A DNA stretch of 64,000 nucleotides. Source: a virus. Its lineage: Duplodnaviria; Caudoviricetes. Location of the stretch: positions 1-64,000 of IMG/VR virus record IMGVR_UViG_3300028804_000002, one strand, 5' to 3'. The notes below the pieces were generated by a model. That model had not been told where the DNA came from. It ran no database searches and saw only the letters and a list, made by a program, of their open reading frames with translations. Made by a program: the position numbers and the translations under genes. Below are positions 40,254 through 63,917 of the stretch, one piece after another (the stretch's first letter is position 1; every line of letters begins with the position of its first letter).

Positions 40254-40285
40254 CAAAATTACACCATATTTACTACATAACCAAA
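40254..40285 (-). promoter_or_regulatory. Bacteroidota-type promoter for the DNA polymerase gene
   Basis: Minus strand TTTG-N20-TAATTTTG, with the ATG 4 nt downstream. Confidence 0.8.
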
Positions 40286-42265: not shown

Positions 42266-42297
42266 CAAAGGTAAAACTAATTTTTGAAATTACCAAA
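42266..42297 (-). promoter_or_regulatory. Bacteroidota-type promoter
   Basis: Minus strand TTTG-N20-TACCTTTG. Confidence 0.8.
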
Positions 42298-45409: not shown

Positions 45410-46067
45410 CTATAATAAAATCTTTTATATTCACTTTATTATCATAGATATAAGTTTCAAGATCTAAATTTGGCTTACTACACAATTCTTTGGCTTCTTT
45501 TAATAATTCTATATTCTTTTCAAAGTCTCTTCTCTCAGTACTTAACTCTCTTGCAAAAGATCTAATACATTCTTCTTGAAATGGATATAGATAACAATAT
45601 AATTTCTTTTGTTCATCTTCTCTTAAAGATTTCCATCTAAAATCTATTATTCTTTTCTTTGCATCCGGACTAAATTTAGAATAAGAACCATTTATAAAAT
45701 TTGTCCAATCGGAAGACCAATCAGATAAATCAAATGTATAAATATATTCATCTTGACTTTCATAAAATCCTGTGAAGTTTCTATTGGACATCAAAACATC
45801 TGTCTCAAACCTCTCCCAATTATTTATAGGATTGTTTATCTTTAACTTATTAATACTATTTATCTCATTCATTTCATATTCTTTCGAGTATGTAAGAATT
45901 AACGTTTCATCTTGAATAGTAAGTCCGTTTGGATAATCAGTAGAAACAAGTGTTGGAGATGCAATATAAGTATTTACTGGTCTATAAATTTTATCTTTTC
46001 TTATTCCAGTTAATGGAAGTAGAAAAATCCTAGATTTTTGTATATAAGCTTTTTGTAATAAACTCAT
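45393..46067 (-). CDS. Conserved-looking crAss-like hypothetical protein
   Basis: 'KSRIFLLPL', 'F.NGSYSKFS..AK..I' and 'ELCSKP...ET' patterns; position downstream of the PD-(D/E)XK-like gene. Confidence 0.55.
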   Translation of the reverse strand: MSLLQKAYIQKSRIFLLPLTGIRKDKIYRPVNTYIASPTLVSTDYPNGLTIQDETLILTYSKEYEMNEINSINKLKINNPINNWERFETDVLMSNRNFTGFYESQDEYIYTFDLSDWSSDWTNFINGSYSKFSPDAKKRIIDFRWKSLREDEQKKLYCYLYPFQEECIRSFARELSTERRDFEKNIELLKEAKELCSKPNLDLETYIYDNKVNIKDFIIDESQD

Positions 46068-46087: not shown

Positions 46088-47653
46088 TTATATGCTCACA
46101 CCTTCATTTGCAAATTCGTAAGGTAAATCATATCTTTTATTATATACGTGCCAATATGCCATATCAGAGAACTGATACAGCTTTTGTTTCCATTTTTTAA
46201 TTGTACCAGATTTTACATTAAATACATAGCATAAATTGTTTTTATCAACTATTATGAAATTAAAAACAAGCTTTATTTTTTTATTTTCAGTTGTTAATAT
46301 TTCATACAATATAGCCATTCTCATTGACAATTCATCTGATATGTTTTCTGGAAATTCATACAGATTTTTATCAATTTTCTTGAATATATTGATATACATA
46401 GTTGGATGATTAGATAAATCAAGTTTAGTTATATCAGAGAAATCTGAGATAAGGTATGGCTTATCTTTAATTTTTTCTGAAATATACTGTTTATTGAGTT
46501 CTATCTTATCAGTTTTATTAACCTTTATACTACACTTTTTTACAATATGCAGTTCTTTTAAAGTTTTTGAAAGAGTTTTTAAAGATTCTACTTTTTCTTT
46601 AGTTATTAAGATTTTATCATCTTTTACTAGACAGAATCTAAAATAATCATCAAATTCTTTAGCCATTATTTCAACTGCTCCAAGAGATTCTTTATAACCT
46701 GAATATTCATAAGCCTTTTTCTTAAGATCTTCAAGATCATCGATTTCATCTTTCTCTATCATATCAGCTGATATCAAATCAGCTAATTTTGTGAGATATT
46801 TTTTCATCATATCAGAAGAAGGCTCTTTTTCAACCATAGTAAAAAATTCATCTATTTGTTCTGGATGAAATATTAATAAGAACAAATATTTTTCTTCAAT
46901 TTCTTCTTTAGTAAGAGAAGATCTTACTGAATTTTTGTCTATTTTAAGTAATTTGTATAGAGGAGGATTAGTTCTTAATAATTGAATATCATTAGATGTA
47001 AACTTAAGATCTTCTGTATTTTTTGAGTAATCCTTAACTTCACAACCAAGTTTTTTAGTTACTAAATTAGTAATATCTTCTCCTGTAATAAAATCTATAT
47101 AATTACTTACATCATTCGAAAGAATATTTTTTAAATTAACTCCTGGATAATTTATTATATCTTGAATTTCATTATTTCCATAAATATCAGTTGCATTATC
47201 ATATTCATTATAAACTGAACTATAAGAAAACATTGGATGATCATTTCTTATCTCTAAATAATTAGAAACTCTGGTTATTCTTGTATGTCCATCTTTTTGA
47301 TATACTGCTATATATTCTGATAGAAAATCTTCTTCCTCATCAAATTCTTCTTCGTTTTGTTCATCGACATTAATTAGTCCACCATCAAAACCACCAATCA
47401 TTGGTTCAATAGCATGAGAAGTAATATCAAGTTGTTTTATTATTTCTTGATCAACATTAACTGCATTTAAAATTTCATTAGCATTAGAATCTGATTTAGT
47501 TTCTTTAACTTCTTCTTTTTTAAATACATTTGGAAATTCAAATTTATATCTATCACTAATATCTTTGTAACTTTGATATTTATGAGATCCAAAAACAAGT
47601 TCATCAAATGCATTTTTTTTAGAAGAAGTTTTATCTTTTTCTTTATCGTTCAT
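46088..47653 (-). CDS. PD-(D/E)XK exonuclease-derived protein, apparently degenerate
   Basis: C-terminal 'FNFIIVDK...AYWH....YDLPYE' and synteny match crAss PD-(D/E)XK nucleases, but no clear D...(D/E)xK catalytic motif is visible. Confidence 0.45.
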   Translation of the reverse strand: MNDKEKDKTSSKKNAFDELVFGSHKYQSYKDISDRYKFEFPNVFKKEEVKETKSDSNANEILNAVNVDQEIIKQLDITSHAIEPMIGGFDGGLINVDEQNEEEFDEEEDFLSEYIAVYQKDGHTRITRVSNYLEIRNDHPMFSYSSVYNEYDNATDIYGNNEIQDIINYPGVNLKNILSNDVSNYIDFITGEDITNLVTKKLGCEVKDYSKNTEDLKFTSNDIQLLRTNPPLYKLLKIDKNSVRSSLTKEEIEEKYLFLLIFHPEQIDEFFTMVEKEPSSDMMKKYLTKLADLISADMIEKDEIDDLEDLKKKAYEYSGYKESLGAVEIMAKEFDDYFRFCLVKDDKILITKEKVESLKTLSKTLKELHIVKKCSIKVNKTDKIELNKQYISEKIKDKPYLISDFSDITKLDLSNHPTMYINIFKKIDKNLYEFPENISDELSMRMAILYEILTTENKKIKLVFNFIIVDKNNLCYVFNVKSGTIKKWKQKLYQFSDMAYWHVYNKRYDLPYEFANEGVSI

Positions 47654-48024
47654 ATTTTTTGATTTATCAATTTATAAAAATCACTTTTTTTCATTATCAC
47701 ATACTCTCCCATTTTCTTAAATATTTTTTTTGAATTTTTTTGTTCAATTTTTTTAGTATATTCATGAAAAATAACTAAAGGTTTATCTAATAACTGAAAT
47801 TCAGAAAATAAATCTTCGTACTTTGGATAACCTGTAATAGATTTAGCTTGTATGTGATATGGAAATTTATTTAGACTATCTGGATAGTCGCATATATCTA
47901 CTAAATTATCATCCATAAATCTGGATAATAGCCTTGAAGTACCTACTTTATAACCCATTTCATTGAGTTCTTTACATAGTTTACGTTCATAATTCGAGCC
48001 TTTGACTTTATTTCTATTTGCCAT
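47650..48024 (-). CDS. Holliday junction resolvase-like PD-(D/E)XK nuclease
   Basis: 'KGSNYERKLCKEL...G...VDI...IQAK...P.VIFH'. Confidence 0.75.
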   Translation of the reverse strand: MANRNKVKGSNYERKLCKELNEMGYKVGTSRLLSRFMDDNLVDICDYPDSLNKFPYHIQAKSITGYPKYEDLFSEFQLLDKPLVIFHEYTKKIEQKNSKKIFKKMGEYVIMKKSDFYKLINQKI

Positions 48025-48029
48025 AATAG

Positions 48030-48061
48030 CAAATATATGCTTTTTTACTCAGATTACCAAA
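48030..48061 (-). promoter_or_regulatory. Bacteroidota-type promoter
   Basis: Minus strand TTTG-N20-TATATTTG, with the ATG 5 nt downstream. Confidence 0.8.
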
Positions 48062-48599
48062 GATTTTTACAAAATTCTAAACACAAATTCTTATTACTCA
48101 TTCTATGATTTTCAAACTCATTCATGATTTTATAAGTTTTTATCTCTTTAATTAAATCATAGAAAAGTGGTTGTTCTGGTTTAGAAACTATCATAGAAAA
48201 AGAACTATATTTACAATGCTTTAATGTATACTCTACAATATCTATAAATATAGAAAATAATTTATTCAGATCTTTTTCAGATATCTCAAAATGATTCATA
48301 CCAAAGAATCTCTCCTTAATATAAAATCTCTTTCCGATTACTTTTCCACAACATGGATAAAATTCACCAAGTTCCATGCTAATTACAATACCTTGCTTGC
48401 AATTTATTGAAAATCCGGTACTTGTTCTAAGATCTCCACTAAGTCTGTGATTAAAATCTCTGAATCTTTTTTTAAGTAATTCTTCTATAGAAGTTACTTC
48501 CTCTTTTTCATCTTTGTCAAAAAACATTAGCTTATATTCGCCAATTTTCTTTATCTTTTCTAAATATTCATCAATATTAGTATTCATAAACTGTTGCAC
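48054..48599 (-). CDS. Divergent GNAT-like protein
   Basis: Aligns by eye with 49473-49967 ('PCCGKVI' vs 'NCSGIII'; 'YKIMNEFENHRMSN' vs 'WKLVADFINPKTLN'). Motif A is not recognisable. Confidence 0.4.
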   Translation of the reverse strand: MQQFMNTNIDEYLEKIKKIGEYKLMFFDKDEKEEVTSIEELLKKRFRDFNHRLSGDLRTSTGFSINCKQGIVISMELGEFYPCCGKVIGKRFYIKERFFGMNHFEISEKDLNKLFSIFIDIVEYTLKHCKYSSFSMIVSKPEQPLFYDLIKEIKTYKIMNEFENHRMSNKNLCLEFCKNLW

Positions 48600-49458
48600 G
48601 TCTTTGTAAAGCCTCTTCAGTTGGCTTTAGTAAGATATTTATTTCATATTTTTTACATAATTCAAGAGCCAGTTCTTTATTTGAAGTATTAATACATTCG
48701 ATGATTTTATCAGCGTCTTTATCAATTTCTTTCATTGAATTTGCATTATAATAGTCAAACATTTGATTAATTTGACCAAAAATATAATTCAATGTATCTT
48801 CACTATTGAAACAATAACCTGAAAGAGTTCTTGCTTCAAAACCTTGAACTTCTCCCCAATTTTGTAATCTAAATGCACCTGCTTGACCATAAAGCTCTCT
48901 TCTTTTTGTATCTCTATCTATAAGAACTAATGGAACAGCTACAAAAGTATCAAATACTTTCATAAGTTCAATACTTCTATCAACACTTGCATTAGGATAA
49001 CTAAAGTGGAAATGACCACCAGTAGTTCTTAAACCACCTGGAAATTTATCAGGTTTATCATTAATTTCCCCGTCTTTCCATGCGTTATAATCACTATCGC
49101 ATCCTATCTGATTAGCTTCAGGATCAAGTAATTGTTCATCAGGTACTACAGCAGAAGCACAACAAACAAGTCTCAGATTTTTGTTTTTTATGTAATTATT
49201 TTTAATATATTCTTTTACATAATTAACATTTTCAATGAAAATATCACCTTCACTTATTTTTACAGGAGGTACATTACATTCAGCTAATACACCATCATGT
49301 TGTGTACAACATCCATCTTTATCTGTTTTTTCTGGATTTTGTTTGGTACCAATAAGATAAGGTATAGCTGACACTATATCTCCTGTATTTTCATTTTCAA
49401 CGAACATTTCAAAATCTGAACCTACTAATACTGCTTCTTTATCAATTTTATTCTTCAT
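48577..49458 (-). CDS. phiEco32-like COOH-NH2 ligase (glutamine synthetase fold)
   Basis: 'VGSDFEMF', 'DGVLAECN', 'GCDSDYNAW', 'RTTGGHFH', 'RRELYGQAGAFR' and 'EARTLS'. Confidence 0.88.
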   Translation of the reverse strand: MKNKIDKEAVLVGSDFEMFVENENTGDIVSAIPYLIGTKQNPEKTDKDGCCTQHDGVLAECNVPPVKISEGDIFIENVNYVKEYIKNNYIKNKNLRLVCCASAVVPDEQLLDPEANQIGCDSDYNAWKDGEINDKPDKFPGGLRTTGGHFHFSYPNASVDRSIELMKVFDTFVAVPLVLIDRDTKRRELYGQAGAFRLQNWGEVQGFEARTLSGYCFNSEDTLNYIFGQINQMFDYYNANSMKEIDKDADKIIECINTSNKELALELCKKYEINILLKPTEEALQRRATVYEY

Positions 49459-49472
49459 ATATTTTCAATTAA

Positions 49473-49967
49473 TTAATTTAAGAAATACATCCACACATTT
49501 ATTCTGTTAAGAGTTTTTGGATTTATAAAATCTGCAACAAGCTTCCATCTATTTTTAATAAATATCTTTTTCTGATATTCATTCATATCTTTATCAGTAG
49601 CTTGAATAATTCCATAACCATAATACTTACAGAAATCTATACAAAATAAATTTATTAAAGAACCAAGTCCTTTATTTAAATATAATTTTGATACAAATAC
49701 ATCACTATTAATTATGATACCAGAACAATTTACCATATCCTGAAGTATAAATCTTGCTATAGGTTTTTGACCTATTGTTATTGCAAATATAAAATTTGCC
49801 TGACCTTTTTGTATATCTTCTGGATTATATTGGCTGATAAATTCTTCCAGGGTGAATCTCACCCCAGAAGAATTTTCATATACATTAATATCTAATTTGC
49901 TCGGATCAATTTCAATAGCCTTACCAAAATCATTTCTTAATTTCGCTACTGACTCCTGAATTTTCAT
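49473..49967 (-). CDS. GNAT-family acyltransferase
   Basis: Motif A 'VFVSKLYLNKGLGSLI' followed by 'GYGIIQAT...IFIKNRWK'. Confidence 0.65.
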   Translation of the reverse strand: MKIQESVAKLRNDFGKAIEIDPSKLDINVYENSSGVRFTLEEFISQYNPEDIQKGQANFIFAITIGQKPIARFILQDMVNCSGIIINSDVFVSKLYLNKGLGSLINLFCIDFCKYYGYGIIQATDKDMNEYQKKIFIKNRWKLVADFINPKTLNRINVWMYFLN

Positions 49968-50706
49968 CTTTCTTTAAATTTGGTGATTTACTGAGTAAAT
50001 TTTTAATGAGATAATTGCCTAAAACGTTGTAATCTTCCTCAGTATGGAATTGACATCCTGCAATAGGCAAACTTTCATGCTCAATTGCTTCAACAACACC
50101 ATCTTTTGTTTTACAAATAACTTTTATACCTTTTGGTATGTCATTTCTTTCGTCATCTTGATATGCTCCTTGATGATGGAGTGAACAAGTAGCAATAGAT
50201 TTATTCTTATTGTTCTTTCTTTTTGCTAAAAGAGTCATTTCAAGCATTTTATATTCTGGTTCAAAAACCAGTTCATGAACTAATTCACCTCTATATTCAT
50301 CACTATAAGCATGATTAATAATATTTTGACATAAGCTTCCACCAAATTTAACAATGAGTTGTTGCATACCAAGACAAGTACCAAATACTGGAACTCCAGC
50401 TTCGATATATTTATCTAAGGTTTTATTAACAAACCATTCTTTAAATTGATCTGGACTACTATTTGTAAAATTTGGTGGTTCATTATAGAGAAAACTTGGG
50501 GTATCTGGACCTCCCGGTAAAAATACCAAATCCAAACCTTCTACCATTGCATTCATTGGAGTTAGTACAACTACATCTCCAAATAATCCTAAATGGATCA
50601 TATAAGGTAGAGTCGCTCCAAATGAATTCTCTCCAACTTTCCATCCTACTATACCAATTAATGGCTTTTTTTTACTTTTCATATTAAATCTCAGTTTTAT
50701 AATCAA
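49930..50706 (-). CDS. Class I glutamine amidotransferase / peptidase C26 (PuuD-like gamma-glutamyl hydrolase)
   Basis: 'KPLIGI', 'LPGGPD', 'GTCLGMQ', 'SLHHQ', 'DGVVEAIE' and 'QFHTE'. Confidence 0.88.
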   Translation of the reverse strand: MIIKLRFNMKSKKKPLIGIVGWKVGENSFGATLPYMIHLGLFGDVVVLTPMNAMVEGLDLVFLPGGPDTPSFLYNEPPNFTNSSPDQFKEWFVNKTLDKYIEAGVPVFGTCLGMQQLIVKFGGSLCQNIINHAYSDEYRGELVHELVFEPEYKMLEMTLLAKRKNNKNKSIATCSLHHQGAYQDDERNDIPKGIKVICKTKDGVVEAIEHESLPIAGCQFHTEEDYNVLGNYLIKNLLSKSPNLKKDENSGVSSEIKK

Positions 50707-50709
50707 TTA

Positions 50710-51378
50710 TTAAAGTTCATCATTGAAAAATTTCATAAATGTAGTTTGCATCCATTCAATTGTAGCATCATAATATTTACTTCCAAACATCATTTCAGGA
50801 TGACCTTGAATACCCATTGCATTAATTTTTGGAAAATATGCTGCTTCAATTTCTTTAAATTCCACAGGTAATGCAACAGATCTATCTTTTGCACCAAGAT
50901 ATCTTGTAGATATTCTTTTTGTAGTCCAGGCTAAAATTTTATATTCTTTACCTGACTTCAAATTATATGGATTTATCATTTGATGATGTATACTATTTGT
51001 TCTAATTTTTACTCCATCAAAAGTAGTCATACTATGATCACCACCATGACCAGTAACATCCTGAATAAGTTTACCACCAGCCATTGCACATAAAAATTGC
51101 AATCCACGACAAGTTCCATACATTTTCTTACCAAGTTTAAGACCTTTTTCAAAGTCTTTCTTTTCTCTTCTTTCTCTTTCAGGACTTGAATAAGTTCTAC
51201 TACCTTCTTTCTCTCCATAAGTTGATGGTTCTATATCAGCACCACCACCAAATATGATGACATCAGCATCTTCTAAAGATTCAGTAAATTCAAATCCAAG
51301 AGGTTCTAGCCAGTTACCATGACCTCTTCCAGTTGCAGAAGCAAAGTATTTGTATTTTTTTTCTTCTTTTTCTTTCAT
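50710..51378 (-). CDS. Second class I glutamine amidotransferase / peptidase C26
   Basis: 'FGGGADI', 'GTCRGLQ', 'NSIHHQ' and 'QGHPE'. Confidence 0.88.
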   Translation of the reverse strand: MKEKEEKKYKYFASATGRGHGNWLEPLGFEFTESLEDADVIIFGGGADIEPSTYGEKEGSRTYSSPERERREKKDFEKGLKLGKKMYGTCRGLQFLCAMAGGKLIQDVTGHGGDHSMTTFDGVKIRTNSIHHQMINPYNLKSGKEYKILAWTTKRISTRYLGAKDRSVALPVEFKEIEAAYFPKINAMGIQGHPEMMFGSKYYDATIEWMQTTFMKFFNDEL

Positions 51379-51380
51379 AT

Positions 51381-52967
51381 TTACTTAATTTCAAAATTAT
51401 TGTATTCAAATTTAAATTCGCTATCTTTTGAAAACCATAGTTTTTCTATAGTTTTATAACTTTTATACTCTCCATTTTCATTAAAAAAAGTATTTTGTCT
51501 GAATTTTAGATATTCCATTAAATATTCAGAATATTTAGAAGGAAGTTGATCTTCAAGAATTTCTTTTAATGTAAGAATTTTTAAAGATAAACCTCTCTTA
51601 ATATCTTCTGCATATTTTAATATTGAAGAACATATCAACATCCAAGAAAGAACTTTTGTTACATTTGTAGAACCTTCGTGTAATCTAAATTCTACAGTGT
51701 GTATTTTACTGAAGAATAAATTGAGAAAATTAACAAGATAATATCTCTGTTCTCTGTCCCATTTATTACCAGTAATGGCATGATAAACACTTTTTGTTGT
51801 ATAAATATTTTTTACCCATTTATCACAAAACATTTTCTTACCGTCTTTTATAAAAGTTTCTCTTACTATTGATCTTTCTCCATACTCTTCAGCTAATGGT
51901 TTACCATTATTTAACCAAGTATAGAGTTTATTAAATTCAAATACTGTATTTCTATGAAATTGCTCTTCATCTTTAGCTTTAAGAATAGAAGCACAATTTA
52001 ATTTTAAGTCAACAAGTGGTTTACAATATACTTTACCATCTTCTTTAATAGAATTAACTCTACTATATGGAAAATATTTCATTAACTCTTCTTGTATTAA
52101 TTGTAATATTCTATAAAGAGATAGTACATAAAGCTTATCCATTCTTACTTTACCGAAATGGTAATGAACTGAGCATAAATTATTTACTTCACATCTTTTA
52201 GAAGCTTCACGACAAAGAAGTTTTATAACTTCAATACCTTTAGCTCCAAACATTGGAACAGTTACATATTCAATACCTTCACCATCACCATGTCTTAATG
52301 ATCCATCTTTTAAAGCTTTTACACCTATAAGACTTCTTATTCTTTTAGGTAAAAAACCATTTATAACTTCAAGTTCCATACCAAATGTAAAATCACCTAT
52401 GAGTTTTGCTATTTCTACACTAGAAGCAGAAATTTTAGGATTAAATTCACTATAGAACTTTTCAAGTTCTTTTTTTCTTGCTTGATCAGATTCAAGATTA
52501 TAATTTTTTGATCTTTCACTATTCGGAATGGCCTTTCTTAATAAGAAAGTCATTTTTTCCGGATTTTCAGCATCAAATTTATAAAATAATCCATCACTCA
52601 TGCATTCTTTATATCCTATTGCTTCTGCTATTTCTGCATTCAAACAAAACACATTTGGTTTTTTACCATAAGTATCAGCAAGACTAACCATAAAATCATT
52701 TTCACTAAAATAACCTTCATCTTTATTTACATTTATGATACCTTTTAGTAAATTTGAATTAGCTTTTAATACATACTTACCTTTATAATTATCAAAGATA
52801 ATTTTTTCAGTAGATGTTATTCTATATCTTTGACCATCCTCCATGAGAAAGCAGGACACACCATCTTCATAGTATTTACCCATGATCTTATATGCCCTGC
52901 TTTTAGGTATGATATTACCTAAATAATCTTTTACAAATTTATTAGTCATTCTGTTTGATTTTTTCAT
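51381..52967 (-). CDS. Putative amidoligase (Amidoligase_2-like, glutamine synthetase fold)
   Basis: 'TFGMELE', 'DGSL', 'EYVT', 'CSVHYH', 'RY..VN' and 'TVEFRLHEGS'. Confidence 0.82.
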   Translation of the reverse strand: MKKSNRMTNKFVKDYLGNIIPKSRAYKIMGKYYEDGVSCFLMEDGQRYRITSTEKIIFDNYKGKYVLKANSNLLKGIINVNKDEGYFSENDFMVSLADTYGKKPNVFCLNAEIAEAIGYKECMSDGLFYKFDAENPEKMTFLLRKAIPNSERSKNYNLESDQARKKELEKFYSEFNPKISASSVEIAKLIGDFTFGMELEVINGFLPKRIRSLIGVKALKDGSLRHGDGEGIEYVTVPMFGAKGIEVIKLLCREASKRCEVNNLCSVHYHFGKVRMDKLYVLSLYRILQLIQEELMKYFPYSRVNSIKEDGKVYCKPLVDLKLNCASILKAKDEEQFHRNTVFEFNKLYTWLNNGKPLAEEYGERSIVRETFIKDGKKMFCDKWVKNIYTTKSVYHAITGNKWDREQRYYLVNFLNLFFSKIHTVEFRLHEGSTNVTKVLSWMLICSSILKYAEDIKRGLSLKILTLKEILEDQLPSKYSEYLMEYLKFRQNTFFNENGEYKSYKTIEKLWFSKDSEFKFEYNNFEIK

Positions 52968-55356
52968 CTCTTACTACGTTTCCTTTTGCAAGGTAATAAT
53001 GGTTAAGAAGTTTCTTTATCAAAGGAGTCCTCTTTTCTTCTGGTATTCTATTAATTTCATTTATATTTATCTCTACACCAGACATAAAATCCTGATAAGC
53101 ATTTATTGCATCTGCCTCATATTCATCTTCGTTTAAATCTTCAAAATGAATAACTTCTGGCTTAAGAATTTCGTCCTTATAAGATAAATATAGTCTTTCG
53201 GTCTCCAGATTAAGATTCTTCTCACTCATATTTAACATATTAAGTACACCTTGAACATCAATTCTTCCAATCATATGTAAACAAAGCAAAATAGCTTCAC
53301 AAAACTGTCTATGTTCTGTAGATGCTGTATTATAATCAGAAACCCAAGATCTACTATATTCTGATAAAGTGTTGTAAGTGGCATCATAAAAATCTTTAGT
53401 AAATTGTTTTTCTGTATAATACGGATTACTTTTTAATAAAGAATCTATAATAGCTTGATTTTGAGTATCTATTTGTTCATCAATTACATCACTTGGATTA
53501 TCATTAAGATCATCTTTTCCATGTTCATTTGATACAGCAAATGTCTCTTTTAAATCAATTTCTCTTTGTCTATGATTTCTAAATAATCTAAGAAGAACTT
53601 GAACTTCTCCAACAAAATCTCCTTTCTCCATATTGAATCCACATGCTTCTCCAAGTTCAAAGAATCTTGTACTATCATATTCATCAAGAATATGTTCTTC
53701 TCTGAATATTTTGAAAAGTTTTCTGAAGAAAAAAGCTTTAGTTTTTATGGTATTATTGTCTCTTAATATGGATATTCTTGCAGCATTATAAACTTCAAAA
53801 CAATTATATTCTTGATTGTTAAGAATTATATTTATAATAGTTGCATCCATATTTTTTGGATTTGGACTTATTGGACCAATTATACTTATAAAAGATGTAT
53901 CTTTTTCTACATTAGATATTTCACATACTTTTATATCAACACCATCAACTTCTATTACTCTTCCAGTATATTTTAAAGTATATTTAATATCAGTAAAAGG
54001 CATTACATAAGAAGTAACATCTCCATAAACTGAAACTTTTCTTCCCCATTCTTCATTCAATAAAAATAATTGTTTATTATCACAAACTGTAAGACAAGGT
54101 TGAGAAAAATACTTACAAAGTTCAGAAAGTTTAATATCCTTAAATTTAGGAAGAGAAAATCCTTTATTATCAGATGCTTTCTCTTTTAATTCATTATAAG
54201 ATTTTTCATCTTTAATTAAGAATCCTGCAATGAAATAATATTTACTAAATTTATCTGGATTTTTGTCATCAATCTTAACTTCTCCATCATTAGATAACCA
54301 TATTTCATCCATAAGAGGATGACCATTTCTCATATATTTATCAACCTGACAATAAATATGTTTACCATCTTTTGGTGTATTATTTATTGTTGGCTTAAAC
54401 ATATCAATAATAATACTATCAGTACTACGAGTATTATTATCTTTACGAAACGGAGTACAGCCTCCTCCCATGTGACCGAAATTTTCATTATTATAGTCAT
54501 AGTCATTCATGTTATAATTGTTACGTGGATAACTTATGACTTTATTTTTTATTGGAGTTCTCTTTATTTCAATACTTTTTGTTATCTTACCTTTATTTAT
54601 TCTATAAAGAATATTATCAGCAAAGCTATGAATATCAAGAGGATCAGCTCCTATTACTTGCAATGGTTCTTCCATTGAAGATATATACATTTCATTCTTA
54701 GCTTTTTGCCAATAAAATAAGGGTCTTTCTGGATCTTTGTAAACCATTAAAGTATTTGGATATTTTGGAGTAAAAAATAACAAAGTAGCTGTTCCATCAT
54801 AAGATTCAAGAGCTTTTGTATATTCTTTTTCTCCAAGTTTCGTCATAATTCTTGTTAAAATTTGAGTATCAGAATTAAGATGAGATTTATAATCCACTTC
54901 AAAATGCTTAGCCATGGCTTCAGTATTAGTTAAAGTACCGTTCATTGCTAAGATAAGATCATATTTTTCTTTTTCTATTCCATCTTTATACATACCAAAT
55001 GGATGAGCAAGCTCTTTTGAAGTAGAACTTCCAGAACTACGTTTTCTTGCATGAGCAATAAAACTATAATTTTCATCATTTTCAGAAATTATTATAGCAT
55101 TCTTTGTTAAGAATTTTATAACTTTTTCAGTATCTTTTGTGATTTGATTATTTATAGCAAATCCTGTACTATCTTCTCCTCTCTCTTGATTGTAAATCAT
55201 CATGAGTTTTAAAAGATTTGGGTCACCAGGATGATCACCACAAAAACCGACCATTCCACAGAATAGATATCCAGATTTATTCTTATTAATGAGAGACATC
55301 AATATATTCCAACATATTATAAACATTGATACTTTCACTACAATTAATAATTCCAT
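52942..55356 (-). CDS. Class II (Ntn) glutamine amidotransferase with long C-terminal extension
   Basis: 'CGMVG', 'RGEDSTG', 'AHARK', 'AHPF', 'NGTL', 'SDTQ' and 'RPL'. Confidence 0.85.
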   Translation of the reverse strand: MELLIVVKVSMFIICWNILMSLINKNKSGYLFCGMVGFCGDHPGDPNLLKLMMIYNQERGEDSTGFAINNQITKDTEKVIKFLTKNAIIISENDENYSFIAHARKRSSGSSTSKELAHPFGMYKDGIEKEKYDLILAMNGTLTNTEAMAKHFEVDYKSHLNSDTQILTRIMTKLGEKEYTKALESYDGTATLLFFTPKYPNTLMVYKDPERPLFYWQKAKNEMYISSMEEPLQVIGADPLDIHSFADNILYRINKGKITKSIEIKRTPIKNKVISYPRNNYNMNDYDYNNENFGHMGGGCTPFRKDNNTRSTDSIIIDMFKPTINNTPKDGKHIYCQVDKYMRNGHPLMDEIWLSNDGEVKIDDKNPDKFSKYYFIAGFLIKDEKSYNELKEKASDNKGFSLPKFKDIKLSELCKYFSQPCLTVCDNKQLFLLNEEWGRKVSVYGDVTSYVMPFTDIKYTLKYTGRVIEVDGVDIKVCEISNVEKDTSFISIIGPISPNPKNMDATIINIILNNQEYNCFEVYNAARISILRDNNTIKTKAFFFRKLFKIFREEHILDEYDSTRFFELGEACGFNMEKGDFVGEVQVLLRLFRNHRQREIDLKETFAVSNEHGKDDLNDNPSDVIDEQIDTQNQAIIDSLLKSNPYYTEKQFTKDFYDATYNTLSEYSRSWVSDYNTASTEHRQFCEAILLCLHMIGRIDVQGVLNMLNMSEKNLNLETERLYLSYKDEILKPEVIHFEDLNEDEYEADAINAYQDFMSGVEININEINRIPEEKRTPLIKKLLNHYYLAKGNVVRDEKIKQND

Positions 55357-55370
55357 TTTTTATTTTTGTT

Positions 55371-56063
55371 TTAAATTGAATAATCTTTGTATCCAACAAT
55401 TCCAGAATGACTATGTATATTTCCAGAATTGTACATTTCAAACGTTTGTTTTTTATCTATCTTACCATTAAGTAAGTCTTGTAACTTATTCTTTGCTGTT
55501 TTGAAATAGCCTTCATCATGAGGTGAATAAAAATCAGCTGATTTAGCTTTACTAAAGAATTCAATAGGATCTTTAGTACCTTCATAACTGAATCCAAGTC
55601 TTATAAGAAAAAATAAAGCACTTACTAAGTAAGGCTTACTTCCCCATTCTCTTGGAACAGTTAAAACAACATAAGATCCAGTATCATCAAACACAGCTCT
55701 TGTAAGCTTAAATTTGAGTTTTCTTTCAAACTTATTTAATAAAGTTCTTATACCAGTAACTTGTTTTTGCTGTATTTCAAGACTCTTATTTGAATCTCTG
55801 TCGTGAAGCTTTAAAGCTATACTATACTTATCTGCATCTAGTATGCCTTTATCTTGATTAGGTTTCCAGTTAAATCCAAATATGTTTATATCTTTTTTCA
55901 TGATATTACTCCAAAACATATCTGTAAAATAATCTTTACATTTACAAAATGGAGTTATTGTTTCACCATTTTCTGGATTTAGAAAGGCAAACTTTATTTC
56001 TTTCTTACCTTGTCCAGCTTCACAAAGACTGTATTTTTTACTTACATTATCAATTACCTTCAT
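55371..56063 (-). CDS. Hypothetical protein of the ligase cluster
   Basis: 230 aa with 'CKCKDY' and C-terminal 'HSHSGI'. Embedded in the cluster. Confidence 0.6.
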   Translation of the reverse strand: MKVIDNVSKKYSLCEAGQGKKEIKFAFLNPENGETITPFCKCKDYFTDMFWSNIMKKDINIFGFNWKPNQDKGILDADKYSIALKLHDRDSNKSLEIQQKQVTGIRTLLNKFERKLKFKLTRAVFDDTGSYVVLTVPREWGSKPYLVSALFFLIRLGFSYEGTKDPIEFFSKAKSADFYSPHDEGYFKTAKNKLQDLLNGKIDKKQTFEMYNSGNIHSHSGIVGYKDYSI

Positions 56064-56227
56064 AGAAATCTTTTTAGAAATTTTTTACCAGTTATTTTAC
56101 CTTTGAAATTAGAAATTAGATTATCTGCAAAAGGTAATTTTAAATGTCTATTTGGACATCTTTTCACTTTACTACATCCATTTTTAGAAAAAATAATTAG
56201 TGTGTATTTTTTACGTTCTACAATCAT
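56060..56227 (-). CDS. Small Lys-rich protein (55 aa, not in the ORF track)
   Basis: MIVERKKYTLIIFSKNGCSKVKRCPNRHLKLPFADNLISNFKGKITGKKFLKRFL, with ATGA overlaps to both flanking genes. Confidence 0.65.
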   Translation of the reverse strand: MIVERKKYTLIIFSKNGCSKVKRCPNRHLKLPFADNLISNFKGKITGKKFLKRFL

Positions 56228-57117
56228 AAGTTGTATTTATTTTTGATTATTTTTGGCAGTTCGATTATATATTTTTCTGCAGTTACATCACCAAAAGATG
56301 GAGCACTACATGATTCAATAATAATCCATTTTACTGCTTTATTCTTTTCTTTAGAGTTTTTTGGATCAGTAGTCTTAACATCAAATGCAAGTACATCACC
56401 ACCAATTGCTTTTAATGCTTTTACACAATCTTCAACAATTGCGCTCCAATTTGAAGGTTTACCAAAATCAGGATTTGATTCGAGTATCCAGACACAATTA
56501 TCATCATGTCTTTGAAATTTCTCTTTTTCAGGAGTATCTTTTTTAAGAGCTTTACGGCAAGTATAAAAATATCCATTTGCATGAACGTGAATTCTAAACT
56601 CTTTACTATAGTTCTTATATTCTTCAATAATATAATCACTACAGTTTTTAGATGCCATAAAAGAATCAAGTTCTTTCTGAGTTTTAATAAAATAGTTTCC
56701 ATTACCACGACTTCCAAATCTTGATTTAATAATAAGATGATTTTCTGGAAAATTAACTTCTTTTAAGAATTTAGTCATTTCATCTTTAGATTTTAAAGCA
56801 TCAAGTTTTCTCCAATTTGCTTGAGTTATTCCTGCTTTTGTGAAACACTCTTTCATTCTTAACTTATCAGAACTGTTTCTTACTGAAGCTACAGAGTTAA
56901 TTTCATACTTAAAATCTCCTTGAGTTGTAGACCCATGACGATAAACTACTTTAGCTCCTTTAACAAGAATTTTGTGTCTTAATTTTTCGCAACTTGGATG
57001 TCTTGATAAAATTCTTAATTGAAAGTGAGTTGGTGTTTTTTTAATTAATACTTTTTTAACTTTACTTCCAGAAATAGTACCTATTAATTTTTTTTTCTTT
57101 TTTAATAAAATTGCCAT
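56224..57117 (-). CDS. ATP-grasp peptide ligase (RimK/phiEco32-like)
   Basis: 'SSDKLRMK', 'IIKSRFGSRGNG', 'IIEEYK..KEFRIHV', 'AFDV' and 'IIESCSAP'. Confidence 0.85.
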   Translation of the reverse strand: MAILLKKKKKLIGTISGSKVKKVLIKKTPTHFQLRILSRHPSCEKLRHKILVKGAKVVYRHGSTTQGDFKYEINSVASVRNSSDKLRMKECFTKAGITQANWRKLDALKSKDEMTKFLKEVNFPENHLIIKSRFGSRGNGNYFIKTQKELDSFMASKNCSDYIIEEYKNYSKEFRIHVHANGYFYTCRKALKKDTPEKEKFQRHDDNCVWILESNPDFGKPSNWSAIVEDCVKALKAIGGDVLAFDVKTTDPKNSKEKNKAVKWIIIESCSAPSFGDVTAEKYIIELPKIIKNKYNL

Positions 57118-57121
57118 AATT

Positions 57122-57493
57122 TTACATGTTTTTGTTAAACTTTACCCAATCCCCATCTTCTACCTCTTTATTTTCTTCTCTTAGAGGCCATTCAATAAAA
57201 ATAGAATAAAGTTCATAATCAATACTTATTAAATGTTCAAAATAATCGCGAGTTCTTACTCTTTTCATATATTCATAAACATAATCGTCTACTAATAATA
57301 AATCAACAACTATTTTGTCTTTAGGATTGCCAGTGAATTCAACATCAGCTCTAAATATAGCATCATACATTTTATATCCTAGTATATTGACTGTCCTTTT
57401 ATATAAAACGCTATTTTGTCCAAAGCTTCTATGTAAGAAATCATAACCAGCCATATCTTTTCTATATATCCCGTATGTGCATATTCTATTCAT
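57122..57493 (-). CDS. Gamma-glutamylcyclotransferase (AIG2)-like protein, divergent
   Basis: 'ICTYGIYRK' (cf. VYGTLR), 'GYKMY' and C-terminal 'V.DGDW'; cluster context. Confidence 0.55.
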   Translation of the reverse strand: MNRICTYGIYRKDMAGYDFLHRSFGQNSVLYKRTVNILGYKMYDAIFRADVEFTGNPKDKIVVDLLLVDDYVYEYMKRVRTRDYFEHLISIDYELYSIFIEWPLREENKEVEDGDWVKFNKNM

Positions 57494-57499
57494 TTTTTA

Positions 57500-58492
57500 T
57501 TAGTTATTAATTATTTTATTTATATAATAAGAATAATGTTCCTTTAAAAAAGGAAGAACATTATTTTGATTATTTTTTGCAAGATCTTGTTTAAGAAGTA
57601 TATGCGCATATGGTATGTCATAAATCTTCTTATAATTTTTCATAGCTTTAATACCAGGCTCATCATTATCAAGCATGGTTATTAAATATTTATACTTAGA
57701 TTTTAAATAATCAATCATATCATACTTTATATAAGTATTTTCTGATTTAGGTGCAACAGCTTCAACCTTTAGACCAACTGACATTAATGCCATTAAATCT
57801 TTTAATCCTGAAGTTATAATACAAACATCAGTATTATATTTAAGTTGATCCCATCCTATGAGATAATCTTTTTTAGTATTTAAATATTTTATTTTTGGAT
57901 TTTCAGGCTGATATATTTGATATAAACCTTGTTTTTCAGAATAGAAACCAAAAGAATAATTTGCAAATCTTCCAGCTTCTTGATCTCCTTTAAGAATAGT
58001 GTATTCTTTAAGGGGTTGAACGTTATAATCTATAAGAATTTTTTTACCTATTTGAAATTGTCTCCAAAATTCAAAATCGTTTTCTTTATATTGTCTTGGA
58101 CATACTTTATAAGTAATATAATCATACATTATTTCTGCATTGTCATATTCATCAAGATTACCTCCTTCATCTAAAAATTTCTCATAAGTAGTTAAAATGT
58201 TATCTAAAGTTACACTATAAGTCTTACTAAGAATTGTTTGAACAAAATCAATAACATCTCCACCTTGTCCGCTAGAATGATCATACCAAAGATATTTATT
58301 TAATCTTTCGTTATAATATATACAAAGAGAAGGTTCAGTATCTCTATTTATAAATGATCTTATTTTAATAATTCTTCCATCAAAAGGTTGAACTATAGGT
58401 CTTCCAGACATTTCAGAATAATATTTATATATCCATGCTTCTGGTATATCTTTAATTTCTGTCTTTAACTTATTCATGTTATATAACACCAT
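57500..58492 (-). CDS. DNA primase (crAss type, TOPRIM)
   Basis: 'D..PS', 'G.GGDVIDFV', 'IITSGLKDLMAL' and 'MLDNDEPG'. Confidence 0.85.
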   Translation of the reverse strand: MVLYNMNKLKTEIKDIPEAWIYKYYSEMSGRPIVQPFDGRIIKIRSFINRDTEPSLCIYYNERLNKYLWYDHSSGQGGDVIDFVQTILSKTYSVTLDNILTTYEKFLDEGGNLDEYDNAEIMYDYITYKVCPRQYKENDFEFWRQFQIGKKILIDYNVQPLKEYTILKGDQEAGRFANYSFGFYSEKQGLYQIYQPENPKIKYLNTKKDYLIGWDQLKYNTDVCIITSGLKDLMALMSVGLKVEAVAPKSENTYIKYDMIDYLKSKYKYLITMLDNDEPGIKAMKNYKKIYDIPYAHILLKQDLAKNNQNNVLPFLKEHYSYYINKIINN

Positions 58493-58509: not shown

Positions 58510-58540
58510 AAAAAAGCCCCTACATTTCTGTAGAGGCTTT
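58510..58540 (-). terminator. Rho-independent terminator (GAAA tetraloop)
   Basis: Minus strand AAAGCCUCUACA-GAAA-UGUAGGGGCUUUUUU, downstream of the SSB gene. Confidence 0.85.
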
Positions 58541-58563
58541 CTTTATTGAGTGCCTGAAATTGC

Positions 58564-59911: not shown

Positions 59912-59943
59912 CAAAGTTAAGACAAATTTTTTACATTACCAAA
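59912..59943 (-). promoter_or_regulatory. Bacteroidota-type promoter
   Basis: Minus strand TTTG-N20-TAACTTTG. Confidence 0.8.
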
Positions 59944-60428
59944 CAATTTTCTGTTTTTTCATAATTATGTACATAAGTAACTTCAATACTCTTTGTAACT
60001 TCTCTAAATTTCTCGGAATTTACAAATTTTATAAAAGCATCATTGTATTTCTTTATATCTTCAGGATCTATATATAAACCATCTTCTTGTTGCCTTCTTT
60101 TATTTCTTTTATTGGCTTTAAACAAGTCTATAGTAAATACTTTAATCTTTACATTAAAACAGGATATAAGATATCTTAGAGCCTCTATATCGAGCTGAAA
60201 TCCATCTATAACGGCATTTCTATTATCATCTATACCATCGATCATACTAAGAATATTCTCCATAGATGCGGTGATAATATCCTCACTTTTTTTATCGGAC
60301 GGTAGACTACCAAACATCATTATTTTAAGATCATCCATACTTAATCTTACATAATTCTTTTTGGTTAAATTTAGACAATAAGTAGTTTTACCTGCACATA
60401 TTTGTCCAATCACTAATTTCACTATCAT
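59931..60428 (-). CDS. P-loop kinase (AAA_33/polynucleotide kinase-like)
   Basis: 'GQICAGKTT', 'RLSMDDLK', 'AVIDG' and lid 'RNKRR'. Confidence 0.75.
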   Translation of the reverse strand: MIVKLVIGQICAGKTTYCLNLTKKNYVRLSMDDLKIMMFGSLPSDKKSEDIITASMENILSMIDGIDDNRNAVIDGFQLDIEALRYLISCFNVKIKVFTIDLFKANKRNKRRQQEDGLYIDPEDIKKYNDAFIKFVNSEKFREVTKSIEVTYVHNYEKTENCLVM

Positions 60429-63886: not shown

Positions 63887-63917
63887 CAAAGATACAACTT
63901 AAACATTAATTATCAAA
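63887..63917 (-). promoter_or_regulatory. Bacteroidota-type promoter
   Basis: Minus strand TTTG-N19-TATCTTTG. Confidence 0.75.

What the first reader, a model, noticed from the sequence alone, without database searches (positions are those of the whole stretch)
48054..57493. Eleven-gene peptide-ligation / gamma-glutamyl biosynthetic cluster inside the replication module
Seen: contiguous, overlapping or abutting minus-strand genes in this order: GGCT-like, ATP-grasp ligase, 55-aa basic ORF, unknown, class II GATase, Amidoligase_2-like ligase, two peptidase-C26/class I GATases, GNAT, phiEco32-type COOH-NH2 ligase, second GNAT-like. The block sits between primase and resolvase, and a fresh host-type promoter (48030-48061) restarts transcription at its 3' end. 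Known: a core of ATP-grasp, COOH-NH2 ligases, GATase-II and AIG2/GGCT occurs in coliphage phiEco32 and relatives, with an uncharacterised product proposed to be a cell-surface or peptide modification. Gamma-glutamylation followed by deprotection is used in the Puu and butirosin pathways. Inference: three ligases, three amidotransferase/hydrolases and two acyltransferases give this Bacteroidota phage an expanded non-ribosomal pathway for a small acylated or amidated peptide. It could be attached to the cell envelope (superinfection exclusion), to proteins, or to DNA/nucleotides, or released as an anti-defence or signalling metabolite. This is the best candidate for an undescribed system in the window.
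Basis: partly seen in the sequence, partly recalled or inferred. Interest (0 to 1): 0.9.

Follow-up and report, generated by a model that had tools for sequence, protein, structure and literature searches.

The report
Expanded phage amide-ligase gene cassette
This is a real eleven-gene operon in a crAss-like phage, but it is an enlarged version of an already described, never biochemically solved phage cassette of enzymes that make and trim glutamate-type amide bonds, so it is a new variant rather than a new system.

Summary
Positions 48054-57493 (- strand) carry eleven tightly packed co-directional ORFs between a DnaG-type primase and a RusA-like resolvase, in a complete 148-kb crAss-like phage genome.

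Direct family hits confirm:
- an ATP-grasp ligase
- a class II amidotransferase (structure Z 25)
- Amidoligase_2
- two Peptidase_C26 enzymes
- the phiEco32-type COOH-NH2 ligase

Homology through related phages confirms the GGCT-like gene and one GNAT. Profile comparison shows the second "GNAT-like" gene is its divergent paralog. The "unknown" 230-aa protein folds confidently and most resembles PafA/glutamine-synthetase-fold ligases, though weakly. The 55-aa ORF occurs only in the closest relative and is not a core part.

The whole arrangement is conserved in at least six related 80-145-kb contigs. The core (GGCT, ATP-grasp, COOH-NH2 ligase, GATase-II, Amidoligase_2, next to primase) is already annotated in Cellulophaga phage phi14:2, cr108_1, phiEco32-like, LUZ24-like and CW02 phages, and was predicted from sequence in 2009.

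This scan has already noted the cassette 115 times on other DNA. Its product is still unknown. The genome lacks the usual entry enzymes for DNA hypermodification.

Verdict: a new variant of a known, uncharacterised kind. Moderate interest.

The parts
57122..57493 (-). GGCT/AIG2-like protein (123 aa). The catalytic Glu of canonical cassette GGCTs is Asp here.
   Evidence: No Pfam hit of its own. It is 31-34% identical to positional orthologs in L007, L010 and L011 that carry PF06094. Alignment A5 shows VDL where phiEco32-like, LUZ24-like, CW02 and Lbo-JY46 GGCTs have VE[LV][YF].
56224..57117 (-). ATP-grasp ligase (297 aa), of the kind labelled RimK-like in phage annotation
   Evidence: Pfam ATP-grasp 4.6e-6, RimK 1.3e-3; phrog_2599 2.7e-18. 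39-40% identical to the annotated ATP-grasp of phi14:2 and cr108_1.
56060..56227 (-). 55-aa basic ORF, not a conserved part of the cluster
   Evidence: Matches only a 56-aa ORF in L009 (46% over 35 aa). It is absent in L007, L010, L011 and L012, where the ATP-grasp stop overlaps the start of the 230-aa homolog. No Pfam or PHROG hit.
55371..56063 (-). 230-aa clade-specific protein, a candidate minimal GS/GCL/PafA-fold protein
   Evidence: 25 homologs, all without Pfam. Model pLDDT 95.5, pTM 0.93. Best structural matches by VIA: PafA Z 6.2 (173 aligned, rmsd 4.3), Dop 5.7, GshF 5.5, glutamine synthetases 5.5-5.4, GmaS 4.9, GshA 4.1, YbdK-like 3.9. Foldseek's best hit is 1-naphthylamine GS, E 0.028. 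The strand that carries E-x-E in such ligases reads E-x-K.
52942..55356 (-). 804-aa class II (Ntn) glutamine amidotransferase. Layout: 32-residue hydrophobic leader, catalytic Cys33, a 535-aa C-terminal extension of unknown fold (beta domain 335-485, helical domain 500-803).
   Evidence: GATase_6 3.3e-10. Model pLDDT 81. Z 25.0 PurF, 24.9 GlmS, 22.4 EgtC, 20.1 AsnB, all starting at residue 33. The leader is kept in 6 of 7 relatives, while L011 starts MCG. The C-terminal part has only 36 representatives in 1.8 billion proteins.
51381..52967 (-). Amidoligase_2 (GS-fold carboxylate-amine ligase), 528 aa with an N-terminal extension
   Evidence: PF12224 1.1e-8; phrog_2443 5.2e-26. 25% identical over residues 17-501 to the cr108_1 homolog.
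50710..51378 (-). Peptidase_C26 / class I GATase (222 aa), the copy shared with cr108_1
   Evidence: PF07722 7e-16; phrog_7218 6.7e-33. 41% identical to the cr108_1 amidotransferase. GTCRG and GHPE motifs present.
49930..50706 (-). Second Peptidase_C26 / class I GATase (258 aa), PuuD/SpuA-like
   Evidence: PF07722 2.9e-24, PF00117 4.5e-19. PDB: Lin1909 2.5e-10, PuuD 1.6e-9 over residues 53-225, 7d4r 2.4e-7. GTCLG and H-T-E motifs present.
49473..49967 (-). GNAT-fold acyltransferase (164 aa)
   Evidence: Homolog P0079 (54% identical) carries PF13508 and PF00583, and JGI names homologs GNAT. Motif A reads NKGLGS. Profile hits to PDB GNATs: 8a9n 2.3e-3, 8a9o polyamine acetyltransferase 9.4e-3, GNA1 1e-2.
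48577..49458 (-). phiEco32-type COOH-NH2 ligase (293 aa)
   Evidence: PF14395 2.4e-12; phrog_3815 1.8e-51. tblastn hits in 300 phage records, best cr108_1 at 39%.
48054..48599 (-). Divergent paralog of the GNAT-fold protein (181 aa), without the acetyl-CoA motif A
   Evidence: hhalign A2 against A3: probability 93.6%, E 2.1e-7, 129 columns. Invariant E-F-x-x-C-C-G and S-x-x-E-Q motifs. No Pfam, PHROG or PDB hit.
57500..58492 (-). DnaG-type primase, the upstream neighbour. The cassette is primase-linked in five phage lineages.
   Evidence: Toprim_2 2.5e-6; phrog_12622 6.2e-17. Same adjacency in phi14:2, cr108_1, UFV-P2, KBNP1711 and CW02.
48030..48061 (-). Bacteroidota-type promoter-like site that starts the next transcription unit (RusA-like gene 47650-48024)
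   Evidence: TTTGGTAAT-N-TATATTTG. It is one of five same-strand intergenic sites with the same extended box, each just upstream of an ATG.

Best explanation
The block is an enlarged, clade-specific version of the phage 'phiEco32-type' amidoligase cassette. It sits in a 148-kb crAss-like phage that uses Bacteroidota-type promoters.

Shown here:
- It is one co-directional unit downstream of primase.
- It encodes three ATP-dependent amide-bond ligases: an ATP-grasp and two GS-fold ligases (Amidoligase_2 and COOH-NH2 ligase).
- It encodes a class II glutamine amidotransferase and two C26 enzymes with intact catalytic motifs. One of these is PuuD/SpuA-like.
- It encodes a GGCT-fold protein, a GNAT and a GNAT-derived paralog.
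- It encodes a 230-aa protein that most resembles GS/PafA-fold ligases.

Inferred mechanism:
- The ligases attach glutamate or another amino acid through gamma-glutamyl-type amide bonds to an amine-bearing cytoplasmic acceptor.
- The amidotransferase amidates an activated carboxylate, or cuts a gamma-glutamyl amide as EgtC does.
- The GNAT acylates a free amine.
- The C26 enzymes and the GGCT-like protein then remove gamma-glutamyl groups.

This is a build, protect and deprotect logic like the Puu and butirosin pathways. The most likely product is a small amidated or acylated gamma-glutamyl amine or short peptide made early in infection, not a DNA base modification. The acceptor is not identified.
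For: - Families and folds.
- Operon structure, promoter set and upstream hairpin.
- Conservation of order and content in six related contigs.
- Same core at the same primase-proximal site in phi14:2 and cr108_1, and the same core next to primase/helicase in UFV-P2, KBNP1711 and CW02.
- C26b matches gamma-glutamyl-GABA hydrolase PuuD over its whole domain.
- The Ntn domain matches EgtC, a gamma-glutamyl amide hydrolase, at Z 22.4.
- PF06094 members act on gamma-glutamyl amines (established knowledge of GGACT).
- The best PDB matches of the GNAT profile are small-amine acetyltransferases.
- Against DNA as target: no PF00303, PF02511, PF12851 or PF01702 match in a genome CheckV rates 100% complete.
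Against: - No substrate, product or phenotype is known for any member of this cassette. Papers up to 2025 only repeat the 2009 speculation.
- The GNAT hits are weak (E 2e-3).
- The GS-fold assignment of the 230-aa protein rests on Z 6.2, below the level the tool calls safe, and its E-x-E strand motif reads E-x-K.
- The GGCT-like protein has Asp in place of the catalytic Glu.
- The amidotransferase Cys lies behind a 32-residue leader whose removal is only assumed.
- No polyamine biosynthesis gene is present. A weak Spermine_synth hit turned out to be NT5C.
- The recurring link to primase, and the co-occurrence of amidoligase and GATase genes with thymidine hypermodification genes in viral contigs (PMC8989533), keep a nucleic-acid target open.
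Confidence: 0.55

Rival explanations
1. Protein or peptide tagging. The ligases add glutamate or a short peptide to side chains or C-termini of host or phage proteins, for example replication or translation proteins. The C26 and GGCT-like enzymes reverse or trim the mark, as in RimK, tubulin glutamylation or Pup-PafA/Dop.
For: - The ATP-grasp falls in the PHROG annotated as RimK-like.
- The best structural matches of the 230-aa protein are PafA (Z 6.2) and Dop (Z 5.7).
- The cassette sits beside primase or primase/helicase in five lineages.
- Small ORFs lie inside the canonical cassettes.
Against: - No conserved small substrate or tag gene: the 55-aa ORF is confined to two genomes and ends in basic and hydrophobic residues.
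- No shared or acidic C-terminal tails among this phage's 210 ORFs.
- The fold matches are weak.
- The RimK label is annotation by homology only.
Confidence: 0.18
2. DNA or nucleotide hypermodification. The enzymes extend or amidate a side chain on a nucleobase or nucleotide so that the phage DNA escapes restriction.
For: - The cluster lies in the replication and nucleotide-metabolism module (primase, resolvase, dUTPase, RNR).
- Lee et al. saw amidoligase and amidotransferase genes of unknown role next to 5-HMUDK and aGPT-Pplase genes in viral contigs (PMC8989533).
- A P-loop kinase (AAA_33, PNK-like) lies 2.4 kb upstream.
Against: - The complete genome has no ThyA-like hydroxymethylase, ThyX, TET/JBP or TGT/DpdA.
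- Pfam scans of all neighbours gave no pyrophosphorylase-type or glycosylase-type family.
- The kinase matches polynucleotide kinase.
Confidence: 0.12
3. Cell-envelope modification, the 2009 proposal. The enzymes remodel cytoplasmic peptidoglycan precursors, for example by adding to or amidating the stem peptide, to block superinfection or to tune lysis.
For: - This is the role attributed to Iyer et al. 2009 by later papers.
- Glutamine-dependent amidation of iso-glutamate in lipid II by MurT/GatD is a known precedent (established knowledge).
- The amidotransferase has a hydrophobic N-terminal helix that could hold it at the membrane.
Against: - No Mur-ligase, FemX-type, transpeptidase or peptidoglycan-binding domain in the cluster.
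- The leader must be removed for Ntn catalysis.
- The cassette occurs in phages of hosts with very different envelopes, including cyanobacteria, a planctomycete and Bacteroidota.
Confidence: 0.12
4. The ORFs are a chance run of unrelated metabolic genes with no common pathway.
For: Five of the eleven ORFs have no direct Pfam hit.
Against: The same order is kept in six diverged relatives at 27-60% identity. The same core set recurs in five other phage lineages.
Confidence: 0.02

Closest known systems
Cassette of Cellulophaga phage phi14:2 (g037-g041) and uncultured crAss-like phage cr108_1 (Crassvirales, Steigviridae)
   Same: Same position directly after primase and upstream of a RusA-like resolvase or UDG. 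Same GGCT, ATP-grasp (39-40% identical), COOH-NH2 ligase (39-40%), GATase-II and Amidoligase_2. cr108_1 also has one C26 enzyme (41%).
   Different: The window has eleven ORFs against five (phi14:2) or eight (cr108_1). Extra here: a second C26, two GNAT-fold genes, the 230-aa protein, the 55-aa ORF, and a GATase-II of 804 aa (638 and 492 aa there) with a leader before the catalytic Cys. Gene order within the block also differs.
phiEco32-type amidoligase cassette of podophages (Iyer, Abhiman, Burroughs and Aravind 2009). Examples read here: Escherichia phage KBNP1711, Pseudomonas phage UFV-P2 and Salinivibrio phage CW02.
   Same: Same six families: PF14395, PF12224, class II GATase, ATP-grasp, a small amidotransferase-like gene and AIG2/GGCT. 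They are clustered and lie next to the primase/helicase.
   Different: Only the COOH-NH2 ligase is detectable by BLAST (28-29% identity). The order along the transcript is mirrored. No GNAT genes or 230-aa family were detected there. Those GGCTs keep the catalytic Glu.
Puu / Spu gamma-glutamyl polyamine pathway (PuuA ligase, PuuD/SpuA hydrolase)
   Same: A GS-fold ligase occurs together with a C26 gamma-glutamyl amide hydrolase. C26b matches PuuD at 1.6e-9 and 7d4r at 2.4e-7.
   Different: No PF00120-type glutamine synthetase domain, no oxidase or dehydrogenase steps, and no evidence that polyamines are the substrate.
Butirosin side-chain pathway (BtrJ ATP-grasp, BtrH acyltransferase, BtrG gamma-glutamyl cyclotransferase)
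   Same: The same combination of ATP-grasp ligase, acyltransferase and GGCT-fold enzyme, which there uses gamma-glutamyl as a transient protecting group (established knowledge).
   Different: No carrier protein, PLP decarboxylase or monooxygenase here. No sequence relationship was tested. The resemblance is one of logic only.
Pup ligase PafA / depupylase Dop
   Same: Best structural matches of the 230-aa protein: Z 6.2 and 5.7, with 164-173 residues aligned.
   Different: Less than half their size, no Pup-like gene, the metal-binding E-x-E motif is not kept, and Z is below a safe level.

Membership tests
phiEco32-type phage amidoligase cassette (Iyer et al. 2009) | COOH-NH2 ligase type 2 (PF14395) | tested here: met
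   2.4e-12, 47.1 bits against a cut-off of 25; phrog_3815 1.8e-51
phiEco32-type phage amidoligase cassette (Iyer et al. 2009) | Amidoligase_2 (PF12224) | tested here: met
   1.1e-8, 35.7 bits against a cut-off of 22; phrog_2443 5.2e-26
phiEco32-type phage amidoligase cassette (Iyer et al. 2009) | ATP-grasp ligase | tested here: met
   Pfam 26.8 bits, just under the cut-off of 27; phrog_2599 2.7e-18; 39-40% identical to the cassette ATP-grasp of phi14:2 and cr108_1
phiEco32-type phage amidoligase cassette (Iyer et al. 2009) | Class II (Ntn) glutamine amidotransferase with a free N-terminal Cys | tested here: inconclusive
   The fold is certain (Z 25) and Cys33 aligns with Cys1. However, Cys33 follows a 32-residue leader with no start codon next to it. 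Processing is assumed, not shown.
phiEco32-type phage amidoligase cassette (Iyer et al. 2009) | AIG2/GGCT-fold gene | tested here: met
   Homologous to PF06094-positive positional orthologs. Its activity is uncertain because the catalytic Glu is Asp.
phiEco32-type phage amidoligase cassette (Iyer et al. 2009) | Tight co-directional cluster in a phage genome | tested here: met
   (virus record, CheckV 100%)
GNAT acyltransferases (164-aa ORF) | Motif A (Q/R-x-x-G-x-G/A) and sequence relation to GNAT families | tested here: met
   Motif reads NKGLGS. A homolog carries PF13508/PF00583. PDB GNAT hits at E 2e-3 to 5e-2. The ORF itself has no Pfam hit.
GNAT acyltransferases (181-aa ORF) | Motif A for acyl-CoA binding | tested here: not met
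   It aligns to the 164-aa family (93.6%), but the motif A position reads FFGMNH. It is GNAT-derived, and any CoA-dependent activity is doubtful.
GS / GCL / PafA-fold carboxylate-amine ligases (230-aa ORF) | Fold similarity over the catalytic beta-grasp core | tested here: inconclusive
   Twelve of the top 13 VIA rows belong to this superfamily, but Z is only 6.2-4.1. Foldseek E 0.028. hhalign to the cassette's own GS-fold families found nothing.
GS / GCL / PafA-fold carboxylate-amine ligases (230-aa ORF) | Metal-binding E-x-E on the first core strand | tested here: not met
   The family consensus is E-V-K-F-A, with only one acidic residue.
Thymidine hypermodification clusters (Lee et al. 2018, 2021) | dUMP hydroxymethylase (ThyA-like) or TET/JBP to make 5-hmdU | tested here: not met
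   No PF00303 or PF12851 match in the whole genome
Thymidine hypermodification clusters (Lee et al. 2018, 2021) | 5-HMUDK kinase and aGPT-Pplase | tested here: inconclusive
   A P-loop kinase at 59931-60428 matches polynucleotide kinase. aGPT-Pplase models were not searched by accession. Pfam scans of neighbours listed none.
7-deazaguanine DNA modification | DpdA/TGT transglycosylase | tested here: not met
   No PF01702 match in the genome

The most novel reading that the evidence does not exclude
The expanded cassette could install and edit a covalent gamma-glutamyl or acyl mark on a macromolecule at the replication fork, either phage DNA or a replication protein. That would explain why it travels with primase in five unrelated phage lineages. 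It would then be an undescribed phage-only modification system acting as a counter-defence or a replication take-over device.
Probability: 0.1. Interest if true: 0.85.

Novelty: new variant of a known kind. Interest (0 to 1): 0.42.

Why it matters
The core cassette is carried by hundreds of phages (300 records matched the COOH-NH2 ligase alone), yet its product has been unknown since 2009. This variant does not solve that question, but it adds clues and a route to test them.
- The added enzymes are a PuuD/SpuA-like hydrolase, a small-amine-type GNAT with an inactive-looking paralog, and a GS/PafA-like mini-protein. Together they point to gamma-glutamyl amine chemistry.
- The absence of all usual DNA-modification entry enzymes argues against a base modification.
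- The minimal form of the same cassette sits at the same site in Cellulophaga phage phi14:2, which has a cultured host. A knockout plus metabolomics experiment is therefore feasible in this phage order.

Tried and rejected
- megablast of the block against phages: no match.
- The search for related loci with the Amidoligase_2 protein in IMG/VR: nothing confirmed.
- Iyer 2009 (PMC3268129) is not held. Its content is quoted only through citing papers and Pfam names.
- PF18909 was a wrong guess for aGPT-Pplase. It is dGTP_diPhyd_N and says nothing.
- Polyamine link: no AdoMet_dc. A weak Spermine_synth match at 71478-71681 belongs to an NT5C nucleotidase, so it was rejected.
- 230-aa protein: no PDB sequence hit, no Atlas feature hit, Atlas fold search TM below 0.4.
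- hhalign of the 230-aa, GNAT and GNAT-like families against the unassigned ORFs of cr108_1, KBNP1711, UFV-P2, CW02 and Lbo-JY46: nothing at probability 20% or more.
- hhalign of the 230-aa family and the satellite 243-aa protein against the cassette's GS-fold families: nothing. The two known GS-fold families did not find each other either, so this is uninformative.
- C-terminal 535 aa of the amidotransferase: no Pfam. Only clade members appear in the 1.8-billion-protein search. VIA gave only helical-hairpin noise and Atlas TM stayed below 0.3. The beta domain has a doubtful match to cr108_1 (49%).
- Complex prediction of the 230-aa protein with the amidotransferase C-terminal part: no verdict (score 0.00).
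- Shared C-terminal tails, as another note of this scan reported in a Rhizobium-type phage: none here.
- Rfam on three relatives with split cluster genes: no intron family at gathering score.
- The count of sigma-70-type promoter matches is below chance (56 against 80.9). Only the Bacteroidota-type motif is informative.

Full report
**What the sequence is**

The window is the first 64 kb of a 148,085-bp IMG/VR virus record that CheckV rates 100% complete.
- Its plus-strand arm carries giant ORFs of 4665, 2415 and 1548 aa.
- Its best phage relatives are the Crassvirales members cr108_1 and Cellulophaga phage phi14:2.
- GC content is about 27%, and the strand switch lies near 36.6 kb.

**Checking the observation**

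Eleven minus-strand ORFs occupy 48054-57493, with overlaps or gaps of at most 14 nt.

Six ORFs have direct family support:

| Coordinates | Size | Family | Support |
|---|---|---|---|
| 56224-57117 | 297 aa | ATP-grasp | Pfam 4.6e-6; phrog_2599 2.7e-18 |
| 52942-55356 | 804 aa | GATase_6/7, N-terminal part | Pfam 3.3e-10 |
| 51381-52967 | 528 aa | Amidoligase_2 | Pfam 1.1e-8; phrog_2443 5.2e-26 |
| 50710-51378 | 222 aa | Peptidase_C26 | Pfam 7e-16 |
| 49930-50706 | 258 aa | Peptidase_C26 | Pfam 2.9e-24 |
| 48577-49458 | 293 aa | COOH-NH2_lig | Pfam 2.4e-12; phrog_3815 1.8e-51 |

Both C26 proteins keep the nucleophile elbow (GTCRG, GTCLG) and an H-x-E motif.

The flanks are as described: primase upstream (Toprim_2; phrog_12622 6e-17) and a RusA-like resolvase downstream (phrog_244 2.5e-8).

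**The five ORFs without a Pfam hit**

Relatives were found through the 230-aa protein. Six contigs of 45-144 kb were fetched. All keep this order:
1. primase
2. a small ORF in some
3. GGACT
4. ATP-grasp
5. the 230-aa homolog
6. a roughly 800-aa GATase-II
7. a roughly 525-aa Amidoligase_2
8. an extra 273-292-aa gene in four of them
9. C26
10. C26
11. a roughly 165-aa ORF
12. COOH-NH2 ligase
13. a roughly 180-200-aa ORF
14. the resolvase-like gene

What this shows for each unassigned ORF:
- **123-aa ORF.** It is 31-34% identical to positional orthologs with precomputed PF06094 hits, so it is GGCT-fold. Alignment A5 shows that the catalytic Glu of canonical cassette GGCTs is Asp in all seven clade members.
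- **164-aa ORF.** It is a GNAT. Homologs carry PF13508/PF00583, motif A reads NKGLGS, and its profile hits PDB GNATs: 8a9n 2.3e-3, 8a9o polyamine acetyltransferase 9.4e-3, and glucosamine-phosphate acetyltransferases 1e-2 to 5e-2.
- **181-aa ORF.** It aligns to that family by hhalign (93.6%, E 2e-7, 129 columns) but has lost motif A. It is a GNAT-derived paralog of doubtful CoA-dependent activity.
- **55-aa ORF.** It has a counterpart only in the closest genome (46% identity, where its neighbours are 72-89% identical). It is absent where the ATP-grasp stop overlaps the next start. It is not a core component.

**The 230-aa protein**

With 21 homologs it folds at pLDDT 95.5 and pTM 0.93.
- An exhaustive structural comparison puts PafA first (Z 6.2, 173 residues, rmsd 4.3). 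Next come Dop, the gamma-glutamylcysteine ligase part of GshF, six glutamine synthetases, GmaS, GshA and a YbdK-like protein.
- Foldseek's top hits are a glutamine-synthetase-type enzyme at E 0.028.
- The Z values are below the level the tool calls safe, and the E-x-E strand motif reads E-x-K.

I therefore rate it a likely but unproven minimal GS/PafA-fold protein, possibly non-catalytic.

**The amidotransferase**

The 804-aa model (pLDDT 81) has these parts:
- an N-terminal helix (residues 2-23);
- an Ntn domain (34-263), matching PurF (Z 25.0), GlmS (24.9), EgtC (22.4) and AsnB (20.1), each alignment starting at Cys33;
- a disordered linker;
- a beta domain (335-485);
- a helical domain (500-803).

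The C-terminal 535 residues have only 36 representatives among 1.8 billion proteins, all in proteins of similar architecture, and no assignable fold. The hydrophobic leader before the catalytic Cys is kept in six of seven relatives, while L011 starts MCG. The leader is therefore a real feature, presumably a propeptide.

**Transcription**

The site at 48030-48061 is one of five same-strand intergenic sites with the extended form TTTGGTAAT...TAnnTTTG, each a few bases before an ATG. This is the Bacteroidota promoter type. The next one upstream is at 59912-59943, so the primase and the cluster lie in one unit, with a terminator-like hairpin at 58543-58510 in front of primase. No expression data could be obtained.

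**Comparison with what is known**

- Cellulophaga phage phi14:2 has primase, GGCT, ATP-grasp, COOH-NH2 ligase, GATase-II and amidoligase in that order, followed by UDG and a RusA-like resolvase.
- cr108_1 has the same core plus one C26 and two unassigned genes.
- KBNP1711 (phiEco32-like), UFV-P2 (LUZ24-like) and CW02 carry the same families next to their primase/helicase.
- Leptolyngbya phage Lbo-JY46 carries them next to PncB and PrsA.
- Papers from 2014 to 2025 cite only the 2009 comparative-genomics prediction: cell-wall modification, superinfection exclusion or a secondary metabolite.
- This scan has already recorded the cassette 115 times in at least 97 genomes, each time as known and untested.

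What is new here is the expansion. The extra parts are a second PuuD/SpuA-like C26 (PuuD 1.6e-9), the GNAT pair, the 230-aa family, and the long amidotransferase with its leader.

**Mechanism**

All assignable parts deal with glutamate- or glutamine-type amide bonds. GS-fold and ATP-grasp ligases make them. An Ntn amidotransferase amidates them, or cleaves them as EgtC does. C26 hydrolases and GGCT remove gamma-glutamyl groups, and a GNAT caps amines. The most economical reading is a build, protect and deprotect route to a small amidated or acylated gamma-glutamyl amine or peptide, in the manner of the Puu and butirosin pathways.

DNA hypermodification is disfavoured, because the complete genome has no ThyA-like, ThyX, TET/JBP or TGT gene. 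It is not excluded, given the primase linkage and the co-occurrence reported by Lee et al.. Protein tagging and envelope modification also remain open.

I found no conserved tag gene and no shared protein tails. I also found no polyamine biosynthesis genes.

**Verdict**

This is a real, conserved operon. It is a new variant of a known but uncharacterised phage cassette.

Noticed in passing
window 40254-40285, 42266-42297, 48030-48061, 59912-59943, 63887-63917 (all - strand): Five intergenic sites share TTTGGTAAT, a spacer of about 15 nt, then TAnnTTTG, and each ends 5-12 nt before an ATG. This is a likely early/middle promoter set of Bacteroidota type. The pattern count alone is not above chance (6 against 5.0).
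   Followed up: partly
window 58510-58543 (-): A strong terminator-like hairpin (15 pairs, followed by a T run) lies 18 nt upstream of the primase start, inside what otherwise looks like one transcription unit.
   Followed up: no
window 55258-55356 (-): The catalytic Cys of the Ntn amidotransferase is residue 33, behind a hydrophobic helix. This leader is conserved in 6 of 7 relatives, and one relative (L011) starts directly with MCG. It may be a propeptide or a membrane tether.
   Followed up: partly
L005:8705-9837; L005:15818-16719; L009:15000-15884; L012:12122-13013; L012:16577-17539: In relatives, four different cluster genes (ATP-grasp, C26a, Amidoligase_2, COOH-NH2 ligase) are cleanly split by 0.9-1.1-kb insertions that carry LAGLIDADG or other ORFs. 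No Rfam intron family was found at gathering score. The window's own copies are uninterrupted.
   Followed up: partly
L005:14663-15541; L007:14780-15601; L010:14741-15568; L012:13387-14217: An extra 273-292-aa gene without any Pfam hit sits between Amidoligase_2 and the first C26 in four relatives. It is missing in the window and in L009.
   Followed up: partly
L002:4209-10297 (genome 68209-74297, - strand): A second operon lies 11 kb beyond the window. It holds a 243-aa protein with a GIELEFF strand motif (no family hit), an intact GGACT (1e-5), a 226-aa HisRS-like core without an anticodon domain (PF13393 5e-18), an NT5C nucleotidase, an NMNAT-Nudix fusion and NAMPT. In Leptolyngbya phage Lbo-JY46 the cassette also abuts NAD-salvage genes (PncB, PrsA).
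   Followed up: partly
window 59931-60428 (-): A 165-aa P-loop kinase (AAA_33; phrog_505 polynucleotide kinase, 3.3e-8) is conserved at this spot in all relatives.
   Followed up: no
window 46088-47653 and 45393-46067 (-): Two conserved ORFs (521 and 224 aa) between the resolvase and dUTPase have no Pfam or PHROG match.
   Followed up: no
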